Positions 1 to 7,543 of a DNA stretch of 7,543 nucleotides are shown here, piece after piece. The notes below the pieces were generated by a model. The model saw only the letters and a list, made by a program, of their open reading frames with translations. It did not search any database and was not told the DNA's origin. The position numbers and the translations under genes were made by a program. Each line of letters starts with the position of its first letter. Positions within the stretch are counted from its first letter, which is position 1. The DNA lies in IMG/VR virus record IMGVR_UViG_2778261182_000005. One strand, given 5' to 3'. Source of the stretch: a virus. Taxonomy: Duplodnaviria > Heunggongvirae > Uroviricota > Caudoviricetes.

Positions 1-61
<61 letters not shown>

Positions 62-142: not shown

Positions 143-218
143 TGGTGGCCCTTGCTGGATTTGAACCAGCGACCTGGCGATTATGAGTCGCTCGCTCTCA
201 CCACTGAGCTAAAGGGCC
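143..218 (-). tRNA. tRNA with CAU anticodon, tRNA-Ile2 (lysidine type, ileX/ileZ-like) rather than elongator Met
   Basis: Reverse complement is GGCCCTTTAGCTCAGTGGTGAGAGCGAGCGACTCATAATCGCCAGGTCGCTGGTTCAAATCCAGCAAGGGCCACCA, 76 nt with a canonical cloverleaf and encoded CCA. Anticodon loop is ACTCATAAT. Near-identical in layout to E. coli ileX from memory. Confidence 0.85.
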
Positions 219-3931: not shown

Positions 3932-4351
3932 TTAAGCTGAGCCCGGCGAATACCAGGGGAAATAAATATCGCTTAACGACGTGTGTTTGAGAACAGAGTC
4001 CACCGCCAATTTTAACGTCAACGACATGAAATTCTCAAAATACCATGAATTTTTCACAAAGAATTTTTCATCGATCAACTCTCCATTCATGATATCAAAG
4101 TCCGTAATCAGCTCCATCTTTAGCTCAAAAGAGGGTTCTTCATCCTCGGCAAGCCCCCCATCTCTATCGGGATACCCTTTTATCGATGGCGAAAACCCAA
4201 TCCGGAACCAACAGGTACCATCATCATCACGCCCCGAAGAAAATTTAACTTCCTCGATCGAGACCTTAAAAAAACCTCCATCATCACTAGTGTTATCCTT
4301 GAAACTACTGGAAACAATATCGAAACCAGCATACTTAATATTTTGTAACAT
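3932..4351 (-). CDS. Acidic hypothetical protein (139 aa from the coupled ATG; 144 aa from ATG 4366), third gene of the hicAB cassette
   Basis: ATG at 4351-4349 overlaps the hicB TGA (4353-4351) as TGATG. Strongly acidic (many D/E, few K/R) with one Cys. A sampled stretch (4021-4080) is about 28 percent GC. No family recognised. Confidence 0.6.
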   Translation of the reverse strand: MLQNIKYAGFDIVSSSFKDNTSDDGGFFKVSIEEVKFSSGRDDDGTCWFRIGFSPSIKGYPDRDGGLAEDEEPSFELKMELITDFDIMNGELIDEKFFVKNSWYFENFMSLTLKLAVDSVLKHTSLSDIYFPWYSPGSA

Positions 4352-4827
4352 CAGTGACGCATCCATCGCTCACCAGCCTCTTTCTTTTTTGTTCTTGCTG
4401 AAGGGGAAATGACGTAACCAAAAGAGAATGCTTTTTCCCAAACGAGCGTATCTGCCGTTTCTTCGCTTTCCGAATGAGAATAAACTTCTTTTTTGTCTGC
4501 AATCTTTTCTTCGATAGCTTTACGCACATAATCATTAAGCGTCGTCTTATCCGCCATTGCAGCCAAAAACGCTTTCTTATGAAGATCGCGACCAATTCTG
4601 ATGTTAAAAGTACCACTCATTGGTTTATCAGGAGATTTCCCTAACTGTTTGCATGTGTCGAGATAATCTGTAACAGCTTCTTCAAAAGCCGCCCTTAACC
4701 CACCCAGTGTTTCCGCTTCGTAGGTTACGACATCGTTTACGCACTGAATTTTCCCATGAAGTATGTTATCTTCAAGTGAAACCTCAATGCTGCCAAAATA
4801 ACCTTTATAACTCAGCACATTACTCAT
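4351..4827 (-). CDS. hicB: HicB-family antitoxin (UPF0150/RNase H-like N-domain plus RHH DNA-binding domain) with a roughly 45-aa C-terminal extension
   Basis: The N-terminus MSNVLSYKGYFGSIEVSLEDNILHGKI...TYEAETLGGLRAAFEEAVTDYLDTCKQLGKSPDKPMSGTFNIRIGRDLHKKAFLAAMADKTTLNDYVRKAIEE matches the HicB-like antitoxin pattern. Start taken as ATG 4827 (MSNV..., 158 aa); the track's ATG at 4842 adds 5 residues. Overlaps the hicA stop. Confidence 0.8.
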   Translation of the reverse strand: MSNVLSYKGYFGSIEVSLEDNILHGKIQCVNDVVTYEAETLGGLRAAFEEAVTDYLDTCKQLGKSPDKPMSGTFNIRIGRDLHKKAFLAAMADKTTLNDYVRKAIEEKIADKKEVYSHSESEETADTLVWEKAFSFGYVISPSARTKKKEAGERWMRH

Positions 4828-5068
4828 AACTATCAATCTCATCCAAAAGATTTTTCACTTCTTTAAGCACATATCCTTTAACAATATTGCCAGGATGTGG
4901 GCAATGAAAAGCCACAAGCCTTCCATTAGCATTGGTAAATTTCCTTCTTGAGCCTGAACCGGTAAGCATTTCGAAACCATAATGCCCAAGCAACGTCACG
5001 AGTTCATCCCATGTAAAATCCTTTGGAAGCTGATTCAGACGCCACCTCAACTTCTCTTTTTTGCTCAT
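4820..5068 (-). CDS. hicA: HicA-family toxin (YcfA-like mRNA interferase), 82 aa
   Basis: FTWDELVTLLGHYGFEMLTGSGSRRKFTNANGRLVAFHCPHPGNIVKGYVLKEVKNLL fits the HicA pattern (ELxxLL...G...GS..F....R...H.PH.G). Located upstream of hicB in the toxin-first order typical of hicAB. ATG at 5068 with a G-rich SD (GGGGGAAGGG) upstream. Confidence 0.85.
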   Translation of the reverse strand: MSKKEKLRWRLNQLPKDFTWDELVTLLGHYGFEMLTGSGSRRKFTNANGRLVAFHCPHPGNIVKGYVLKEVKNLLDEIDSYE

Positions 5069-5296: not shown

Positions 5297-5452
5297 TTAC
5301 TCCTCAGGTTCGTAAGCTGTGAAGACAGCGACCTCCGTCTGGCCGGTTCGGATTCGTACCTCGCAGAGGTCTTTCCTCGTTACCAGTGCCGTCACTATGA
5401 CGGTTAAACAGATGACGATCAGGGCGATTAACATCGCCTTTTGCTGCTTCAT
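5297..5452 (-). CDS. hokD: Hok/Gef-family type I toxin (51 aa membrane peptide), HokD/RelF-like
   Basis: Hand translation gives MKQQKAMLIALIVICLTVIVTALVTRKDLCEVRIRTGQTEVAVFTAYEPEE, matching Hok family and HokD/RelF as recalled. SD AAGGAG lies 8 nt upstream of the ATG. Not in the ORF track because it is under 60 aa. Confidence 0.9.
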   Translation of the reverse strand: MKQQKAMLIALIVICLTVIVTALVTRKDLCEVRIRTGQTEVAVFTAYEPEE

Positions 5453-5508
5453 AGCCTGCTTCTCCTTGACCTTTCGGTCCGTAAGAGGCTAATCTCTATG
5501 TGTCGCAT
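5449..5508 (-). CDS. mok-like leader ORF (19 codons) whose stop overlaps the hok start (ATGA)
   Basis: ATG at 5508-5506 (MRHIEISLLRTERSRRSRL) ends in TGA at 5451-5449, overlapping the hok ATG at 5452-5450. A GAGG SD lies upstream. The leader sequence is homologous to the plasmid R1 hok/mok leader as recalled (ATAGCCTCTTAC, AAGGAGAAG). Confidence 0.5.
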   Translation of the reverse strand: MRHIEISLLRTERSRRSRL

Positions 5509-5570
5509 AGATATGGCCTCAGATTAATGTTAAGCGTCTTGCCGGACGCGTAATGTTAACTGGGGCTTTT
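5500..5570 (+). ncRNA. Predicted Sok-like antisense RNA (approximate limits) complementary to the mok translation initiation region
   Basis: Inferred from hok/sok architecture. A plus-strand TTGACC (5466-5471) with a weak -10 (5489-5495) would start transcription just before the mok start and SD complement. A small hairpin GCGTC-ttgccg-GACGC lies at 5534-5549. The ends are not determined. Confidence 0.3.
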
Positions 5571-5626
5571 CTCTATCTGCCGTTGGTGTTCATGCCCGAG
5601 GCAGATAGCCTCAAGCACCCGCAGCA

Positions 5627-5741: not shown

Positions 5742-6650
5742 TCATCGTAAAATATCCTCCACGCTTGTCAGTCCGTTTCGCTCCAGGTAGTCCATCGCCT
5801 TATCAGGCAAGATACTTAATCTATTGGCGTACTTTAAGGAGTGGGCCAGTCGCTTGACCCACATTGTTAATTCGCTAACCTGGTTACCAGATACTGGTGA
5901 GTTGTCGGTTTTACCATGGCGGGCGGCGTAGTCGGCGCTCCATCCCTTCTCCTCCTGCGGCGGTTCAGGCAACGCTTCCAGTGAAGCTTTCACAAAACAC
6001 GCCGCCTGAACTATAACGCCATGAATCCAACGCAAATCAGCATCGCGATCTTTCTTTTTCATCTTCTCGCCACTTAAAGCCTGGCTTATGTGGCTGCGTA
6101 CCAGGTCTTCATGTAACTCCTTCGCATCCTCAATGGTGAAACCACCAGGCAGAAGAACCGAAGTTACCGGAGAGTTGGTTGACGTTTCCGCGATTCCCCG
6201 AAAATTGTTGGTTGACGAATTCTTGTTTTCCCGAAAATTTCCAGCCTGAAGCATGGCTTCGCGGCAATCGTTCCATCCTTCAGCATAATCACTATGCGCA
6301 AGAGGCCAACCTCTTATGTATTCACGCGGCAACTTATCAGGCACTACCATCGCTGGCGGCGCTGCGTAAAGCGGTGTTATTTCTGCCCGAAAGTCACCTA
6401 TTTCATGCAGTCGCACCCAGCGTTCGACTTCTGCTTTGTCAGAATACATAGTGGTGAACGTATTATATTTATTGTCAATTTGCGTGAAGGTTGCCTTCCA
6501 CGCCACTGGCTCTGCTTCCAGTGACGCCAGTGCGATACGAAACACATTGGCAAGCAGGCTGTCTGAAGATTGGTTATCGTGCGCCGGGTCGCTCAGGAAA
6601 CCAGTGATGAATGATTTAATCTCCGCGTTTTCTCTGGTAATAGTGGTCAT
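5742..6650 (-). CDS. Hypothetical phage protein (302 aa), two apparent domains joined by a low-complexity linker
   Basis: ATG at 6650 with SD AAGGA at 8-nt spacing (MTTITRENAEIK...). The track's longer version starts at TTG 6740 without a good SD. No family recognised. It occupies the position upstream of hok that relBE holds in E. coli K-12 Qin. Confidence 0.65.
   Translation of the reverse strand: MTTITRENAEIKSFITGFLSDPAHDNQSSDSLLANVFRIALASLEAEPVAWKATFTQIDNKYNTFTTMYSDKAEVERWVRLHEIGDFRAEITPLYAAPPAMVVPDKLPREYIRGWPLAHSDYAEGWNDCREAMLQAGNFRENKNSSTNNFRGIAETSTNSPVTSVLLPGGFTIEDAKELHEDLVRSHISQALSGEKMKKKDRDADLRWIHGVIVQAACFVKASLEALPEPPQEEKGWSADYAARHGKTDNSPVSGNQVSELTMWVKRLAHSLKYANRLSILPDKAMDYLERNGLTSVEDILR
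6174..6239. repeat. Tandem direct repeat, 2 x 33 bp, imperfect, inside the 302-aa CDS
   Basis: Unit 1 is gttggttgacgtttccgcgattccccgaaaatt and unit 2 is gttggttgacgaattcttgttttcccgaaaatt. The first 11 and last 9 nt are identical. It encodes the repeated NFR...STN linker motif. Confidence 0.6.
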
Positions 6651-6736
6651 ATCAGCTTTCCTTATATGGGTTGATTTTGTTGTGCAGTGTGTTGAACGAC
6701 GCCCATACCACGTCGTTATACAATTCAATAACTGGC

Positions 6737-6883
6737 TCAATTATTTTCCCGATTGCCCAGACAAAAATTAGCGGGGATATCGGCATCAGCAGCACTTCCA
6801 CCACGTAACTCTGCATAGTCCATTAACAGTTCATGCCATTCTTTAAAACTGACGTTGTATTTAGTTGAACCAAAATCAGCCAT
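6737..6883 (-). CDS. Small acidic hypothetical protein (48 aa)
   Basis: ATG at 6883 preceded by GAGGAGG at about 7-nt spacing. Hand translation gives MADFGSTKYNVSFKEWHELLMDYAELRGGSAADADIPANFCLGNRENN with TGA at 6739-6737. Below the ORF track's size cutoff. Confidence 0.5.
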   Translation of the reverse strand: MADFGSTKYNVSFKEWHELLMDYAELRGGSAADADIPANFCLGNRENN

Positions 6884-6887
6884 TTTG

Positions 6888-7058
6888 TTATTCCTCCTCG
6901 TCTTTTATTTCGTGATATGAGTAATTGCAGTAGTTAAAGAAAATTTCTTTTGCTTCGTCCTGTATTTCATCTGGTGTCGCATCATCATCCACTTCGAATA
7001 CATCTTCAAAATCTCCACCAGCAATTCCCGTTTCAATAATTATTTTGAACTTTCGCAT
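6888..7058 (-). CDS. Small highly acidic hypothetical protein (56 aa)
   Basis: ATG at 7058; hand translation gives MRKFKIIIETGIAGGDFEDVFEVDDDATPDEIQDEAKEIFFNYCNYSYHEIKDEEE. Its TAA (6890-6888) lies 4 nt before the next gene's ATG, and its 3' end carries that gene's SD. Its own SD is weak (AAAGGG). Confidence 0.5.
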   Translation of the reverse strand: MRKFKIIIETGIAGGDFEDVFEVDDDATPDEIQDEAKEIFFNYCNYSYHEIKDEEE

Positions 7059-7091
7059 TTCATTACCGCCCTTTCTGGCAGCCTCCTGACA

Positions 7092-7304
7092 TTAATCGTT
7101 GTGATAACTCATGGCTTCATTTGCAGCATCAACTGGATCAACCTCCCACCAGCAATAATTTTGGTCGGCTCCTTCAGGCGTCCACGGTTCTAATTCATTT
7201 TTTGCCGCATTCTCATCGCCAGTAATTTTAAAAATCTGCTCAGAGAATTTTCTCACCCACTCGTTATATTTTTCCGCGTTAATGGTTTTCTGTGTATTTA
7301 ACAT
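7092..7304 (-). CDS. Small acidic hypothetical protein (70 aa)
   Basis: ATG at 7304 preceded by a strong SD (GGAGGT at 7-nt spacing). An AT-rich intergenic region lies upstream. No family recognised. Confidence 0.6.
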   Translation of the reverse strand: MLNTQKTINAEKYNEWVRKFSEQIFKITGDENAAKNELEPWTPEGADQNYCWWEVDPVDAANEAMSYHND

Positions 7305-7354
7305 AGATATACCTCCAGTTAAGGATTAGATTTTATTTACAGCACTAAATTTAT

Positions 7355-7543
7355 TTATTCAGTTCTGGATTTTGTCGCCCTGCGTATCCGCGCTTTCGCG
7401 TTACGCTCAATCTGAATTAACTTTTCTATATTTTTCCGTCTTTCCTGTTCCTCCTGGCGCAATAGCCTTACATCATCTGCCAGTCTGGTTTCTCTTTTCG
7501 CCACAGAGAGCATCCAGTCAAACGGCTCCACAACTGCACCGCA
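7355..7543 (-). CDS. 3' end of a CDS entering from the right edge (C-terminal 62 aa, basic, coiled-coil-like); function unknown
   Basis: Open in frame from 7543 to TAA at 7357-7355, ending ...RLADDVRLLRQEEQERRKNIEKLIQIERNAKARIRRATKSRTE. The 5' part lies outside the window. Confidence 0.5.
   Translation of the reverse strand, partial: CGAVVEPFDWMLSVAKRETRLADDVRLLRQEEQERRKNIEKLIQIERNAKARIRRATKSRTE

What the first reader, a model, noticed from the sequence alone, without database searches (positions are those of the whole stretch)
6737..7304. Run of three small acidic ORFs with strong ribosome-binding sites, two of them absent from the ORF track
ORFs of 70, 56 and 48 aa are tightly packed (4-nt and 33-nt gaps), and each has a Shine-Dalgarno sequence. 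All are acidic, and the 56-aa product ends in DEEE. The region is AT-rich (about 32 percent GC in a sampled stretch). Small acidic early phage proteins are often host-takeover or anti-defence factors such as DNA mimics or inhibitors of host enzymes.
Basis: seen in the sequence. Interest (0 to 1): 0.45.

Follow-up and report, generated by a model that had tools for sequence, protein, structure and literature searches.

The report
Small acidic prophage accessory genes, one broken
The three small acidic reading frames sit in the early accessory region of an E. coli lambda-like prophage: two are real, conserved phage genes of unknown function, and the third is the stump of a conserved gene cut by a deletion, so the finding is real but largely ordinary.

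Summary
All three ORFs exist on the minus strand at the stated coordinates, with 33-nt and 4-nt gaps and pI 4.0-4.5. The window is the replication-to-Q accessory region of a lambdoid E. coli prophage.

- **orf70 (7092-7304):** an intact member of a narrow Escherichia/Shigella family (phrog_4659), pN/pS 0.22. It behaves as a one-gene cassette that is usually not next to the other two.
- **orf56 (6888-7058):** Pfam DUF7167, pN/pS 0.07. This 56-60-aa hyper-acidic family also occurs in Klebsiella, Enterococcus and Pseudomonas phages. A GAA->TAA change removes 4 residues here.
- **orf48 (6737-6883):** not a gene in its own right. Residues 1-35 are the N-terminus of a conserved 58-aa gene that normally overlaps DUF7167 by 8 nt. 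A roughly 0.9-kb deletion fused it out of frame to the 3' part of a DUF4014 gene. None of 5426 complete E. coli genomes has this junction.

Side observation: orf56's strong GGAGG lies 23 nt from the AUG across a conserved GC hairpin, which resembles the split ribosome-binding sites of T4 genes 38 and 25.

The parts
7355..7543 (-). 3' part of the upstream gene (118 aa in relatives; zinc-ribbon plus basic coiled-coil, phrog_1621). It runs off the window end.
   Evidence: phrog_1621 E=6e-25 over positions 64-121. The full-length ArgO145 gp17 matches phrog_1621 at E=1.5e-56 and gives a weak Zn_Ribbon_TF hit.
7312..7316 (-). Shine-Dalgarno GGAGG of orf70, 7 nt (TATATCT) upstream of the ATG.
   Evidence: Duplex with the 16S 3' end is -10.6 kcal/mol. 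It is conserved as GGAGG in nearly all of 85 relatives.
7092..7304 (-). orf70: an intact 70-aa acidic protein (pI 4.38) of a narrow Escherichia/Shigella prophage family. Predicted to be three helices.
   Evidence: phrog_4659 E=2e-50, full length. 120 clusters are nearly all 70 aa at 86-94% identity. An exhaustive search of 1.84e9 representatives found only two distant relatives. The frame is intact in 82/82 loci, pN/pS 0.22. AF2 pLDDT 80. Present in 581/5426 complete E. coli genomes.
7059..7091 (-). Conserved intercistronic linker: strong GGAGG (7082-7086), a GC hairpin (7065-7082; here GCUGCC/AGAAAG/GGCGGU, canonically GCCGCCC-GAAA-GGGCGGU), then AAUGAA and the AUG.
   Evidence: Sequence. Fold energy is -10.7 kcal/mol for the window variant and -16.9 (z=-3.5) for the canonical form. 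The same linker precedes DUF7167, DUF4014 and other unrelated genes. Covariation is not demonstrated.
6888..7058 (-). orf56: a DUF7167 family protein, 56 aa, pI 4.05, predicted beta-beta-alpha-beta fold. A GAA->TAA change makes it 4 residues shorter than the canonical 60 aa.
   Evidence: PF23768 scores 53.2 bits against a cut-off of 24.4. phrog_1997 E=6e-30. 79/85 relatives are 60 aa and end in DEEEEQNG, pN/pS 0.07. AF2 pLDDT 77. Homologues occur in Klebsiella, Enterococcus, Pseudomonas and Phapecoctavirus phages. Present in 1688/5426 E. coli genomes.
6892..6899 (-). Shine-Dalgarno GAGGAGGA of orf48, embedded in the D-E-E-E codons of orf56.
   Evidence: Duplex energy -11.8 kcal/mol, 8-nt spacer. 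The purine-rich GA(A/G)GAGGAAGA motif is conserved upstream of the 58-aa gene in relatives.
6780..6883 (-). N-terminal 35 codons of the conserved 58-aa gene (p58; ArgO145 gp14). This is the homologous part of orf48.
   Evidence: blastn homology block reg 455-764, which corresponds to window 6780-7089. Protein alignment: identity ends after residue 35. phrog_519 matches residues 1-36 only.
6737..6883 (-). orf48 as read by the first stage: a chimera of p58 residues 1-35 plus 12-13 residues read out of frame from a DUF4014 gene.
   Evidence: The exact protein is known from only 3 member sequences, and its longest contig is this 7543-nt window. The junction is absent from all 5426 complete E. coli genomes.
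6652..6795 (-). 3' remnant of a DUF4014 gene (C-terminal ~45 codons, in the frame of the 54-aa ORF 6652-6816). Its N-terminal ~27 codons are deleted.
   Evidence: Translation matches DUF4014 residues 26-72 at 83% identity. PF13198 was confirmed on the intact ArgO145 gp12. Megablast of window 6735-6795 hits annotated DUF4014 genes.
5742..6650 (-). Downstream ead/Ea22-like mosaic gene (302 aa from the ATG at 6650, with an AAGGAA SD). The mechanical ORF call starts 30 codons too early, at a TTG at 6740.
   Evidence: PHROG matches begin at residue 31 of the long ORF. SD and ATG positions. The homologous region is annotated 'ead/Ea22-like family protein' in relatives.

Best explanation
The finding covers part of the accessory section of the delayed-early operon of a lambdoid (Rac/Stx-like) E. 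coli prophage. It lies between the replication genes and the antiterminator Q.

**Anatomy (shown).** The region is built from small gene cassettes that shuffle independently.
- orf70 is a one-gene cassette from a narrow Escherichia family.
- orf56 (DUF7167) normally heads a translationally coupled chain: DUF7167, then an 8-nt overlap to a 58-aa protein (p58), then a 4-nt overlap to an Ea22-type protein whose N-terminus reads MSEI(N/D)YQ.
- In this window a deletion of roughly 0.9 kb cut that chain. It occurred at a short TGATG microhomology, removed the end of p58, the Ea22-type gene and the start of a DUF4014 gene, and left the out-of-frame fusion read as 'orf48'.
- orf70 and orf56 are intact, selected protein-coding genes. 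No promoter or terminator motif was found among the three ORFs, so they are probably co-transcribed, and each has its own ribosome-binding site.

**Translation of orf56 (inferred).** Its strong GGAGG lies 23 nt from the AUG. It is probably brought to a working distance of about 6 nt by the intervening GC hairpin.

**Mechanism (inferred, not shown).** Both intact products are small (56-70 aa), compactly folded, strongly acidic and lack catalytic or metal-binding motifs. They most likely act by stoichiometric binding to another protein early in lytic development. That would modulate host or phage machinery, as the characterised small proteins of the lambda exo-xis region do. DUF7167 keeps its size and charge in phages of both Gram-negative and Gram-positive hosts, so its partner is probably a broadly conserved component.
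For: **Context**
- The window's gene order is: phrog_1621 gene, orf70, DUF7167, orf48, ead-like gene, hok/sok, HicAB, DUF968, RusA, Q, tRNAs.
- Relatives show replication genes directly upstream.
- The same block sits between exo/RecT and int in Stx phage ArgO145.

**Coding status**
- Frames are intact in 82/82 loci (orf70), 85/85 (DUF7167) and 80/85 (p58), with pN/pS of 0.22, 0.07 and 0.10 against 0.6-5 in off-frames.

**Cassette behaviour**
- orf70 is missing from nearly all 80 loci that carry DUF7167. Its flanks there lie 14 nt apart.
- orf70 is usually followed by DUF4014 and only 3 times in 80 by DUF7167.

**Coupled chain**
- The DUF7167/p58 overlap is 8 nt in about 70 of 80 loci.
- The p58/MSEI(N/D)YQ overlap is 4 nt in about 72 of 80 loci.

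**Deletion chimera:**

**Operon:** no promoter-like or terminator-like sites in 6500-7543.

**Protein properties**
- Folded models: pLDDT 77 (beta-beta-alpha-beta) and 80 (three helices).
- Size and charge of DUF7167 are conserved across distant phages: 56-57 aa, pI 4.05-4.11.

**Hairpin**
- Fold energies and recurrence upstream of unrelated genes.
- T4 genes 38 and 25 are the precedent for a split ribosome-binding site (PMC3014915).

**Exo-xis precedent**
- Small exo-xis proteins affect the lysis-lysogeny decision (PMC3824215, PMC7093339 and PMC8614690).
Against: - No experiment or annotation ties any of the three families to a function.
- They share no detectable sequence similarity with lambda orf60a, orf61, orf63, Ea8.5 or orf55.
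- In this window the block sits on the pR/nin side, not in an exo-xis position.
- The hairpin shows no significant covariation: 93.8% of cells are paired, which equals the shuffles, and only one change is double-sided. It could equally hide the weak proximal GGGCGG and reduce translation.
- Expression has not been observed.
- The nonsense trim of orf56 and the deletion suggest that this copy of the module may be decaying.
Confidence: 0.55

Rival explanations
1. One reading: the products are host-takeover or anti-defence factors. For example, they could be DNA mimics or stoichiometric inhibitors of restriction or other defence enzymes, made early to protect the incoming or induced phage.
For: - DUF7167 is 32% Asp+Glu with net charge -13 over 56 aa, and this is conserved in phages of unrelated hosts.
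- The genes are small and early, and sit in a mosaic accessory region rich in toxin-antitoxin and other conflict genes: hok/sok and HicAB here, ParDE and HigB in relatives.
Against: - No sequence homology to any characterised inhibitor.
- The fold matches are no better than those to dozens of generic ferredoxin-like or ACT/RAM domains.
- Nothing in the literature.
- A dedicated anti-defence library was not available.
- The tight translational coupling to Ea22-type genes points at least as much to developmental regulation.
Confidence: 0.2
2. DUF7167 is a remote relative or functional analogue of T7 Gp2. It would be a small acidic beta-beta-alpha-beta protein that binds the RNA polymerase beta' jaw and blocks host transcription.
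For: - The size class (56-60 aa against 64 aa), charge and strand-strand-helix-strand order are the same.
- hhalign places the shared K/R-K-F...ET/ES...FEV and ...A..E..A motifs in register over 38 columns.
Against: - hhalign probability is 0.2% (E=0.28) with both the shallow and the diverse profile.
- There is no PF16857 hit at E up to 1.
- In that weak hhalign register, the positions opposite Gp2 Arg56 and Arg58 are K/T/F/E/G and not conserved. The role of those two arginines in jaw binding is from my own knowledge.
- Lambdoid and Herelleviridae phages depend on host RNA polymerase, so a full inhibitor would harm them.
Confidence: 0.08
3. The ORFs are chance open frames in AT-rich spacer DNA, or dead remnants of a decaying cryptic prophage with no present function.
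For: - orf48 really is a broken remnant, and the neighbouring DUF4014 gene is truncated.
- orf56 carries a premature stop relative to the canonical form.
- The region is AT-rich, which favours long open frames.
Against: - orf70 and orf56 are full-length relative to their families, apart from a 4-residue tail trim.
- Their families show strong frame-specific purifying selection, with no frameshifts in 82 and 85 loci.
- DUF7167 is conserved across phages of different phyla.
- Strong, conserved ribosome-binding sites are present.
Confidence: 0.1

Closest known systems
Small ORFs of the lambda / Stx-phage exo-xis region (orf60a, orf63, orf61, orf73, Ea22, Ea8.5)
   Same: - Both are runs of tightly packed early genes for 55-75-aa proteins lying next to Ea22-type genes in lambdoid phages.
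- In Stx phage ArgO145 the identical block (gp16, gp15, gp14) lies between exo/RecT and int.
- DUF7167-p58 is translationally coupled to an Ea22-type N-terminus.
- The characterised exo-xis genes modulate the lysis-lysogeny decision and prophage induction (PMC3824215, PMC7093339, PMC8614690).
   Different: - No sequence similarity to any lambda exo-xis protein.
- The Pfam/PHROG families differ: DUF7167, phrog_4659 and phrog_519 here, against DUF1317 and DUF1382 for lambda orf60a and orf63.
- In this window and in O26-type prophages the block lies after the replication genes, on the pR side.
- No functional data exist.
Pfam DUF7167 (PF23768) / phrog_1997
   Same: orf56 is a clear member: 53.2 bits against a cut-off of 24.4, matched over its full length. 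It shares the invariant IET...E...I...A...F...C pattern.
   Different: It is 4 residues shorter than the usual E. coli form because of a GAA->TAA change. The family itself has no known function.
T7 Gp2 (RNA polymerase inhibitor, PF16857) and T4 Dmd (antitoxin against RnlA/LsoA)
   Different: - No sequence-level support for a link to Gp2; Dmd was not compared by sequence.
- Gp2's key arginines are not conserved.
Split ribosome-binding sites of T4 genes 38 and 25
   Same: The SD and AUG are too far apart (23 nt here; 22 and 27 nt in T4). A stable hairpin fills the gap and leaves about 6 nt of effective spacing (PMC3014915).
   Different: - The context is a lambdoid prophage.
- The hairpin has a GAAA tetraloop and recurs as a portable linker in front of several unrelated genes.
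- No mutational or probing data exist, and covariation is not shown.
Gene-boundary 'linker' sequences of mosaic lambdoid phages
   Same: A short conserved intergenic sequence is shared at the junctions of otherwise unrelated cassettes: DUF7167, two DUF4014 subtypes and others. This is what one would expect of a homology patch for module exchange. That such boundary sequences are described for lambdoid phages is from my own knowledge.
   Different: Here the patch coincides with a translation-initiation region and a structured RNA element. A role in recombination is inferred only from its distribution.

Membership tests
Pfam DUF7167 (PF23768) | HMM score above the gathering threshold over the whole domain | tested here: met
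   53.2 bits against 24.4; residues 2-53 match profile positions 1-60 of 60. All 12 diverse homologues also match.
Pfam DUF7167 (PF23768) | Stand-alone protein of about 56-60 aa with conserved IET / E / C positions and an acidic C-terminal tail | tested here: met
   Alignment A7 has invariant I8, E9, T10, E22, I32, A36, F40 and C44. All members have pI 4.05-4.11.
phrog_4659 (orf70 family) | Full-length HMM match and a conserved 70-aa frame | tested here: met
   E=2.3e-50, residues 1-70 of 70. 82/82 related loci have an intact 70-aa frame.
58-aa family (p58; C-terminal module of phrog_519; ArgO145 gp14) | Full-length match including the invariant C-terminal half (W37, D40, Y41, E42, A43, G44) | tested here: not met
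   orf48 matches over residues 1-35/36 only. Residues 36-48 come from an out-of-frame DUF4014 segment. The invariant columns are listed.
Lambda exo-xis small proteins (orf60a/DUF1317, orf63/DUF1382, orf61, Ea8.5, orf55) | Sequence homology to one of the characterised proteins | tested here: not met
   blastp with relaxed settings gave no meaningful hits: the best matches to lambda proteins have E>0.3 over 21 aa or fewer. No DUF1317 or DUF1382 hits appeared.
Lambda exo-xis small proteins | Position between exo and xis/int in the pL operon | tested here: inconclusive
   This is true for the orthologous block in Stx phage ArgO145. In the window and in O26-type and 08-00022 prophages the block lies between the replication genes and Q.
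T7 Gp2 RNA polymerase inhibitor (PF16857) | Sequence or profile match to the family | tested here: not met
   No PF16857 hit at E up to 1. T7 Gp2 itself scores E=4e-28 against that model. hhalign probability is 0.2%.
T7 Gp2 RNA polymerase inhibitor (PF16857) | beta-beta-alpha-beta fold | tested here: inconclusive
T7 Gp2 RNA polymerase inhibitor (PF16857) | Conserved arginines of strand 3 (Arg56/Arg58 in T7) that contact the beta' jaw (own knowledge) | tested here: not met
   In the register the equivalent positions are K52 and E54 in the window. Position 52 varies (K/T/F/E/G) among homologues. That register comes from an alignment with only 0.2% probability.
DNA-mimic proteins (Ocr, ArdA, Arn and similar) | Very high density of surface Asp/Glu and low pI | tested here: met
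   orf56 has 18 D+E in 56 aa and pI 4.05, and this is conserved in homologues. orf70 and orf48 are only moderately acidic.
DNA-mimic proteins (Ocr, ArdA, Arn and similar) | Carboxylate array matching the spacing of B-DNA phosphates; binding to a DNA-binding enzyme | not testable with these tools
   This needs model coordinates or electrostatics and binding assays. No sequence relative among solved structures.
Split ribosome-binding site (T4 gene 38/25 type) | An SD too far from the start codon, with a stable intervening hairpin that restores a working spacing | tested here: met
   There are 23 nt between GGAGG and the AUG. The hairpin spans 7065-7082 and leaves AAUGAA (6 nt). Energy is -10.7 kcal/mol here and -16.9 (z=-3.5) in the canonical form.
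Split ribosome-binding site (T4 gene 38/25 type) | Evidence that the structure is selected or functional (covariation, mutagenesis) | tested here: inconclusive
   93.8% of cells are paired. Many changes are C->U and keep G-U pairs. Only one change is double-sided, and the scores equal those of shuffles.

The most novel reading that the evidence does not exclude
DUF7167 is a previously unrecognised pan-phage inhibitor. It would be a 56-aa hyper-acidic beta-beta-alpha-beta protein, kept at the same size and charge in temperate and virulent phages of Escherichia, Klebsiella, Pseudomonas and Enterococcus. It would bind a universally conserved bacterial machine, for example the RNA polymerase DNA channel as T7 Gp2 does, or a nucleic-acid-binding or defence enzyme through DNA mimicry. 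A second, independent part of this reading is that the GGAGG-hairpin-AUG linker in front of it is a portable element that both drives translation and serves as the homology patch for cassette exchange in lambdoid accessory regions.
Probability: 0.12. Interest if true: 0.7.

Novelty: new member of a known kind. Interest (0 to 1): 0.3.

Why it matters
Small early accessory genes of lambdoid and Shiga-toxin phages are a recognised pool of unknown function. The few that have been studied influence the lysis-lysogeny decision, and therefore toxin release. Other phage proteins of this size and charge have turned out to be potent inhibitors of host enzymes.

This analysis shows that two of the three ORFs are real and selected. 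DUF7167 is in 31% of complete E. coli genomes and orf70 in 11%. DUF7167 also reaches far beyond enterobacterial prophages, which makes it the sensible candidate for a binding-partner screen.

The analysis also prevents a false lead. The third ORF is a deletion artefact specific to this contig. The 'DEEE' tail and the 4-nt gap are partly by-products of an overlapping ribosome-binding site and a nonsense change.

The conserved SD-hairpin-AUG linker is a testable case of a split ribosome-binding site outside T4.

Tried and rejected
1. **Homology to lambda exo-xis proteins.** blastp of all window ORFs against lambda orf60a, orf63, orf61, Ea8.5, Ea22 and p35 found nothing.
2. **Known defence proteins.** PADLOC gave no hits and NCBIfam gave no hits.
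3. **Remote homologues of orf70.** Exhaustive phmmer found three giant proteins at E of 1e-6 to 3e-8. Inspection showed sums of 6-14 very weak matches to T/S/A/D-rich repeats, so these are artefacts.
5. **DUF7167 and T7 Gp2.** hhalign probability was 0.2% with both profiles.
6. **Guilt by association with 'exonuclease' neighbours in distant phages.** The Enterococcus neighbour is a DUF3850/ASCH protein and the Klebsiella one is a DUF2800 PD-(D/E)XK nuclease. They are unrelated, so there is no consistent partner.
7. **Homology between orf70 and p58.** Both have a (D/T)PV(D/E)A motif, but hhalign probability is 0.1%.
8. **K-12 Rac prophage as an annotated reference.** It lacks these genes.
9. 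**Covariation support for the hairpin.** Not significant.
10. **Literature searches.** Searches for DUF7167, DUF4014, the PHROG numbers and the protein accessions found nothing relevant.
11. **Rfam.** No known RNA family lies inside 6737-7304.
12. **Promoter and terminator scan of 6500-7543.** Nothing found.
Full report
**1. What is in the sequence**

The mechanical ORF list shows three ATG-started ORFs on the minus strand:
- 7092-7304 (70 aa)
- 6888-7058 (56 aa)
- 6737-6883 (48 aa)

They are separated by 33 nt and 4 nt. The predicted products have pI 4.38, 4.05 and 4.50, and the 56-aa product has 18 Asp+Glu against 5 Lys+Arg. GC is 39.4% over the finding, with a 30-32% minimum around 6806-6955, against 46.6% for the window. 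Six ATG-ORFs of at least 48 aa lie in 6600-7543, against 1.2 +/- 1.0 in shuffles. The description is therefore accurate as far as it goes.

**2. Where the window comes from**

All genes run on the minus strand, in this order:
- the tail of a phrog_1621 gene
- the three ORFs
- an ead/Ea22-like mosaic gene
- hok with its Sok RNA (Rfam RF01794, 101 bits)
- a HicA/HicB pair
- DUF968, RusA and antiterminator Q
- a 239-aa membrane-like ORF
- three tRNA genes

The exact 48-aa protein is on record from E. coli on a contig of 7543 nt, which is this window. In related complete genomes the replication genes (YdaT, DUF1376, P, DUF1627, DUF977) lie directly upstream. The ORFs therefore belong to the delayed-early rightward operon, in the position of the lambda nin region.

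The same block, at 91-95% protein identity, lies in Stx phage ArgO145 between exo/RecT and int. That is the exo-xis position of the leftward operon. No promoter-like or terminator-like site lies in 6500-7543.

**3. orf70**

- It matches phrog_4659 over its full length (E=2e-50) and has no Pfam or NCBIfam family.
- Relatives are almost all 70 aa at 86-94% identity, from Escherichia and Shigella.
- An exhaustive HMMER search of 1.84 billion cluster representatives added only two distant relatives of 75 and 93 aa. The giant-protein hits in that search are repeat artefacts.
- In 82 of 82 related loci the 70-codon frame and its ATG are intact. pN/pS is 0.22 in frame, against 1.03 and 0.82 out of frame.
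- It is present in 581 of 5426 complete E. coli genomes.
- It behaves as a cassette. In nearly all of 80 IMG/VR loci selected for DUF7167, the sequences flanking orf70 are only 14 nt apart and orf70 is absent. In 80 loci selected for orf70, the next gene is usually DUF4014 and only 3 times DUF7167.

**4. orf56**

- It is a member of Pfam DUF7167 (53.2 bits against a 24.4 cut-off) and of phrog_1997.
- The usual E. coli form is 60 aa and ends in DEEEEQNG (79 of 85 loci). In the window a GAA->TAA change stops it after DEEE.
- pN/pS is 0.07 in frame, against 5.0 and 2.0 out of frame.
- It is in 1688 of 5426 complete E. coli genomes.
- tblastn finds full-length homologues at 39-68% identity in:
  - temperate and Guernseyvirinae Klebsiella phages
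  - Enterococcus Herelleviridae
  - Phapecoctavirus
  - a 151-kb Pseudomonas phage
- All of these homologues are 56-57 aa with pI 4.05-4.11 and an acidic tail, and all match the Pfam model.
- The AlphaFold model (pLDDT 77) is strand-strand-helix-strand.
- BFVD returns only uncharacterised small phage proteins.
- Profile comparison with T7 Gp2 gives 0.2% probability, and there is no PF16857 hit.
- A uL23 hit from the shallow profile did not survive a more diverse profile.

**5. orf48**

Only residues 1-35 are conserved. The parent is a 58-aa gene with the sequence MADFGSTKYNVSFEEWHELLMDYAELRGGSAADAEAWRDDYEAGKTPVEAYCDEWGDE, which is ArgO145 gp14.
- It is intact at 58 aa in 80 of 85 loci, with pN/pS 0.10.
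- It overlaps DUF7167 by 8 nt (ATGGCTGA) in about 70 of 80 loci.
- It overlaps, by 4 nt (ATGA), a downstream gene that starts MSEI(N/D)YQ in about 72 of 80 loci. That is the N-terminus typical of Ea22-type proteins.

In the window, nucleotide homology to this gene ends near 6780. Homology to the 3' two-thirds of a DUF4014 gene then begins in another frame. The true DUF4014 frame survives as the overlapping 54-aa ORF 6652-6816.

Relative to ArgO145 and the O26 prophage, about 0.9 kb is missing: the end of p58, an Ea22-type gene and the start of DUF4014. The joint lies at a TGATG microhomology. No complete E. coli genome among 5426 has this junction. orf48 is therefore a recent, lineage-specific deletion product. 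It lacks the invariant W37 and D40-G44 of its family.

**6. Ribosome-binding sites**

orf70 has GGAGG seven nt upstream of its start. orf48 has GAGGAGGA eight nt upstream, formed by the D-E-E-E codons of orf56.

orf56 is different. Its only strong GGAGG (7082-7086) is 23 nt from the AUG, and a hairpin (7065-7082) fills the gap. In relatives the element reads CAGGAGG-CCGCCC-GAAA-GGGCGG-UAGUGAA-AUG.
- Fold energy is -16.9 kcal/mol (z=-3.5) for the canonical form and -10.7 (z=-1.5) for the window variant.
- The same linker precedes DUF4014 genes and at least two further unrelated genes in IMG/VR prophage contigs.
- The geometry matches the split ribosome-binding sites of T4 genes 38 and 25, where a hairpin shortens 22 or 27 nt to 5 or 11 nt (PMC3014915).
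- Pairing is kept in 93.8% of cells, often through C->U changes. Only one double-sided change exists, and the counts do not exceed shuffles. The structure is therefore plausible but unproven.

**7. Function**

Nothing functional is attached to any of the three families in Pfam, PHROGs, NCBIfam, PADLOC, the PDB or the searchable literature. They are not homologous to the studied lambda exo-xis proteins. An apparent link between DUF7167 and 'exonuclease' neighbours dissolved on inspection.

Four observations carry the inference:
- Both intact proteins are small, folded and acidic, without catalytic or metal-binding motifs.
- They are made from an early operon.
- In temperate phages DUF7167 is coupled to Ea22-type genes. 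In the Klebsiella phage it directly follows one.
- It keeps its size and charge in phages of very different hosts.

My best inference is stoichiometric binding to a conserved host or phage protein during early development. This is the kind of role shown for exo-xis proteins, which shift the lysis-lysogeny decision and prophage induction (PMC3824215, PMC7093339, PMC8614690).

Rough subjective weights for each reading, for DUF7167 and its parent module; these overlap and are not meant to sum to 1:

| Reading | Estimate |
|---|---|
| Developmental or host-physiology modulator of the exo-xis kind | about 0.35 |
| Anti-defence or DNA mimic | about 0.2 |
| Gp2-like RNA polymerase binder specifically | below 0.1 |
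| This copy is functionally decaying | about 0.1 for the two intact genes, above 0.8 for orf48 |

**8. Verdict**

The genes were already catalogued as hypothetical or DUF proteins in thousands of genomes. One of the three is an artefact of a deletion.

The functional interpretation is an untested guess that the data neither support nor exclude. Novelty is low: these are new members of the known class of small early accessory genes of lambdoid phages. DUF7167 is a reasonable target for a partner screen, and the SD-hairpin-AUG linker is a small testable side observation.

Noticed in passing
window 7059-7091 (-); also L001 about 6224-6260 (-) and more than 120 IMG/VR loci (L172-L291): A conserved linker of about 30 nt: GGAGG, a 6-7-bp GC hairpin with a GAAA tetraloop, 6-7 nt, then the AUG. 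It recurs in front of unrelated small genes (DUF7167, two DUF4014 subtypes and at least two other families). It may be a split ribosome-binding site, a cassette-exchange patch, or both.
   Followed up: partly
window 6652-6816 (-): A 54-aa ORF overlaps orf48 in another frame and carries the C-terminal ~45 residues of a DUF4014 membrane protein (PHROG label 'released from the phage upon host infection'). Its start is an internal ATG without an SD, so it is probably a dead remnant.
   Followed up: yes
window 6888-6890 (-), the stop codon of orf56: A GAA->TAA change, relative to 79 of 85 relatives, removes the last four residues (EQNG). It turns the usual 8-nt overlap with the next gene into a 4-nt gap.
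   Followed up: yes
window 5297-5452 (-) and 5450-5620 (-): A hok-type toxin ORF (51 aa, annotated hokD in relatives) with a full-length Rfam Sok antitoxin match (RF01794, 101 bits, E=1e-22).
   Followed up: no
window 4820-5068 (-) and 4351-4842 (-): An adjacent 82-aa and 163-aa ORF pair. Relatives annotate a HicB family antitoxin here, so this is probably a HicA/HicB toxin-antitoxin module. A 144-aa acidic ORF (3932-4366, phrog_19522, function unknown) lies downstream.
   Followed up: no
window 1-61, 76-134 and 146-218 (-): Three tRNA-like matches downstream of the Q antiterminator region (72.5 bits; 42.4 bits, cut by the window end; 23.2 bits, below threshold). This resembles the tRNA clusters annotated downstream of Q in the related prophages.
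   Followed up: no
window 7355-7543 (-); full length in L082 7392-7748: The upstream gene encodes a 118-aa protein with a CxxC...CxxC zinc-ribbon (weak TFIIB Zn_Ribbon hit, below the Pfam cut-off) and a very basic coiled-coil tail (phrog_1621). It is a frequent left neighbour of both orf70 and DUF7167.
   Followed up: partly
L008 and similar loci, about 2440-2500 (loci lacking orf70): Where orf70 is absent, its own SD and spacer (GGAGGTATTTCT) are still present. They are followed by 14 nt and then the hairpin linker. Gene callers then produce N-terminally extended 84-93-aa 'DUF7167' proteins (P0123, P0125, P0127) that are probably mis-called starts.
   Followed up: partly
window 5742-6740 (-): The mechanical ORF call for the ead/Ea22-like gene starts at a TTG at 6740, directly abutting orf48. 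The PHROG matches and a good SD indicate that the real start is the ATG at 6650, which leaves 86 nt occupied by the DUF4014 remnant.
   Followed up: yes
one locus among L172-L291 (IMG/VR hits): One contig carries a different in-frame deletion that fuses the first four codons of DUF7167 to the 58-aa gene (MRKFRKNKMADFGSTKY...). Deletions inside this module therefore recur.
   Followed up: no
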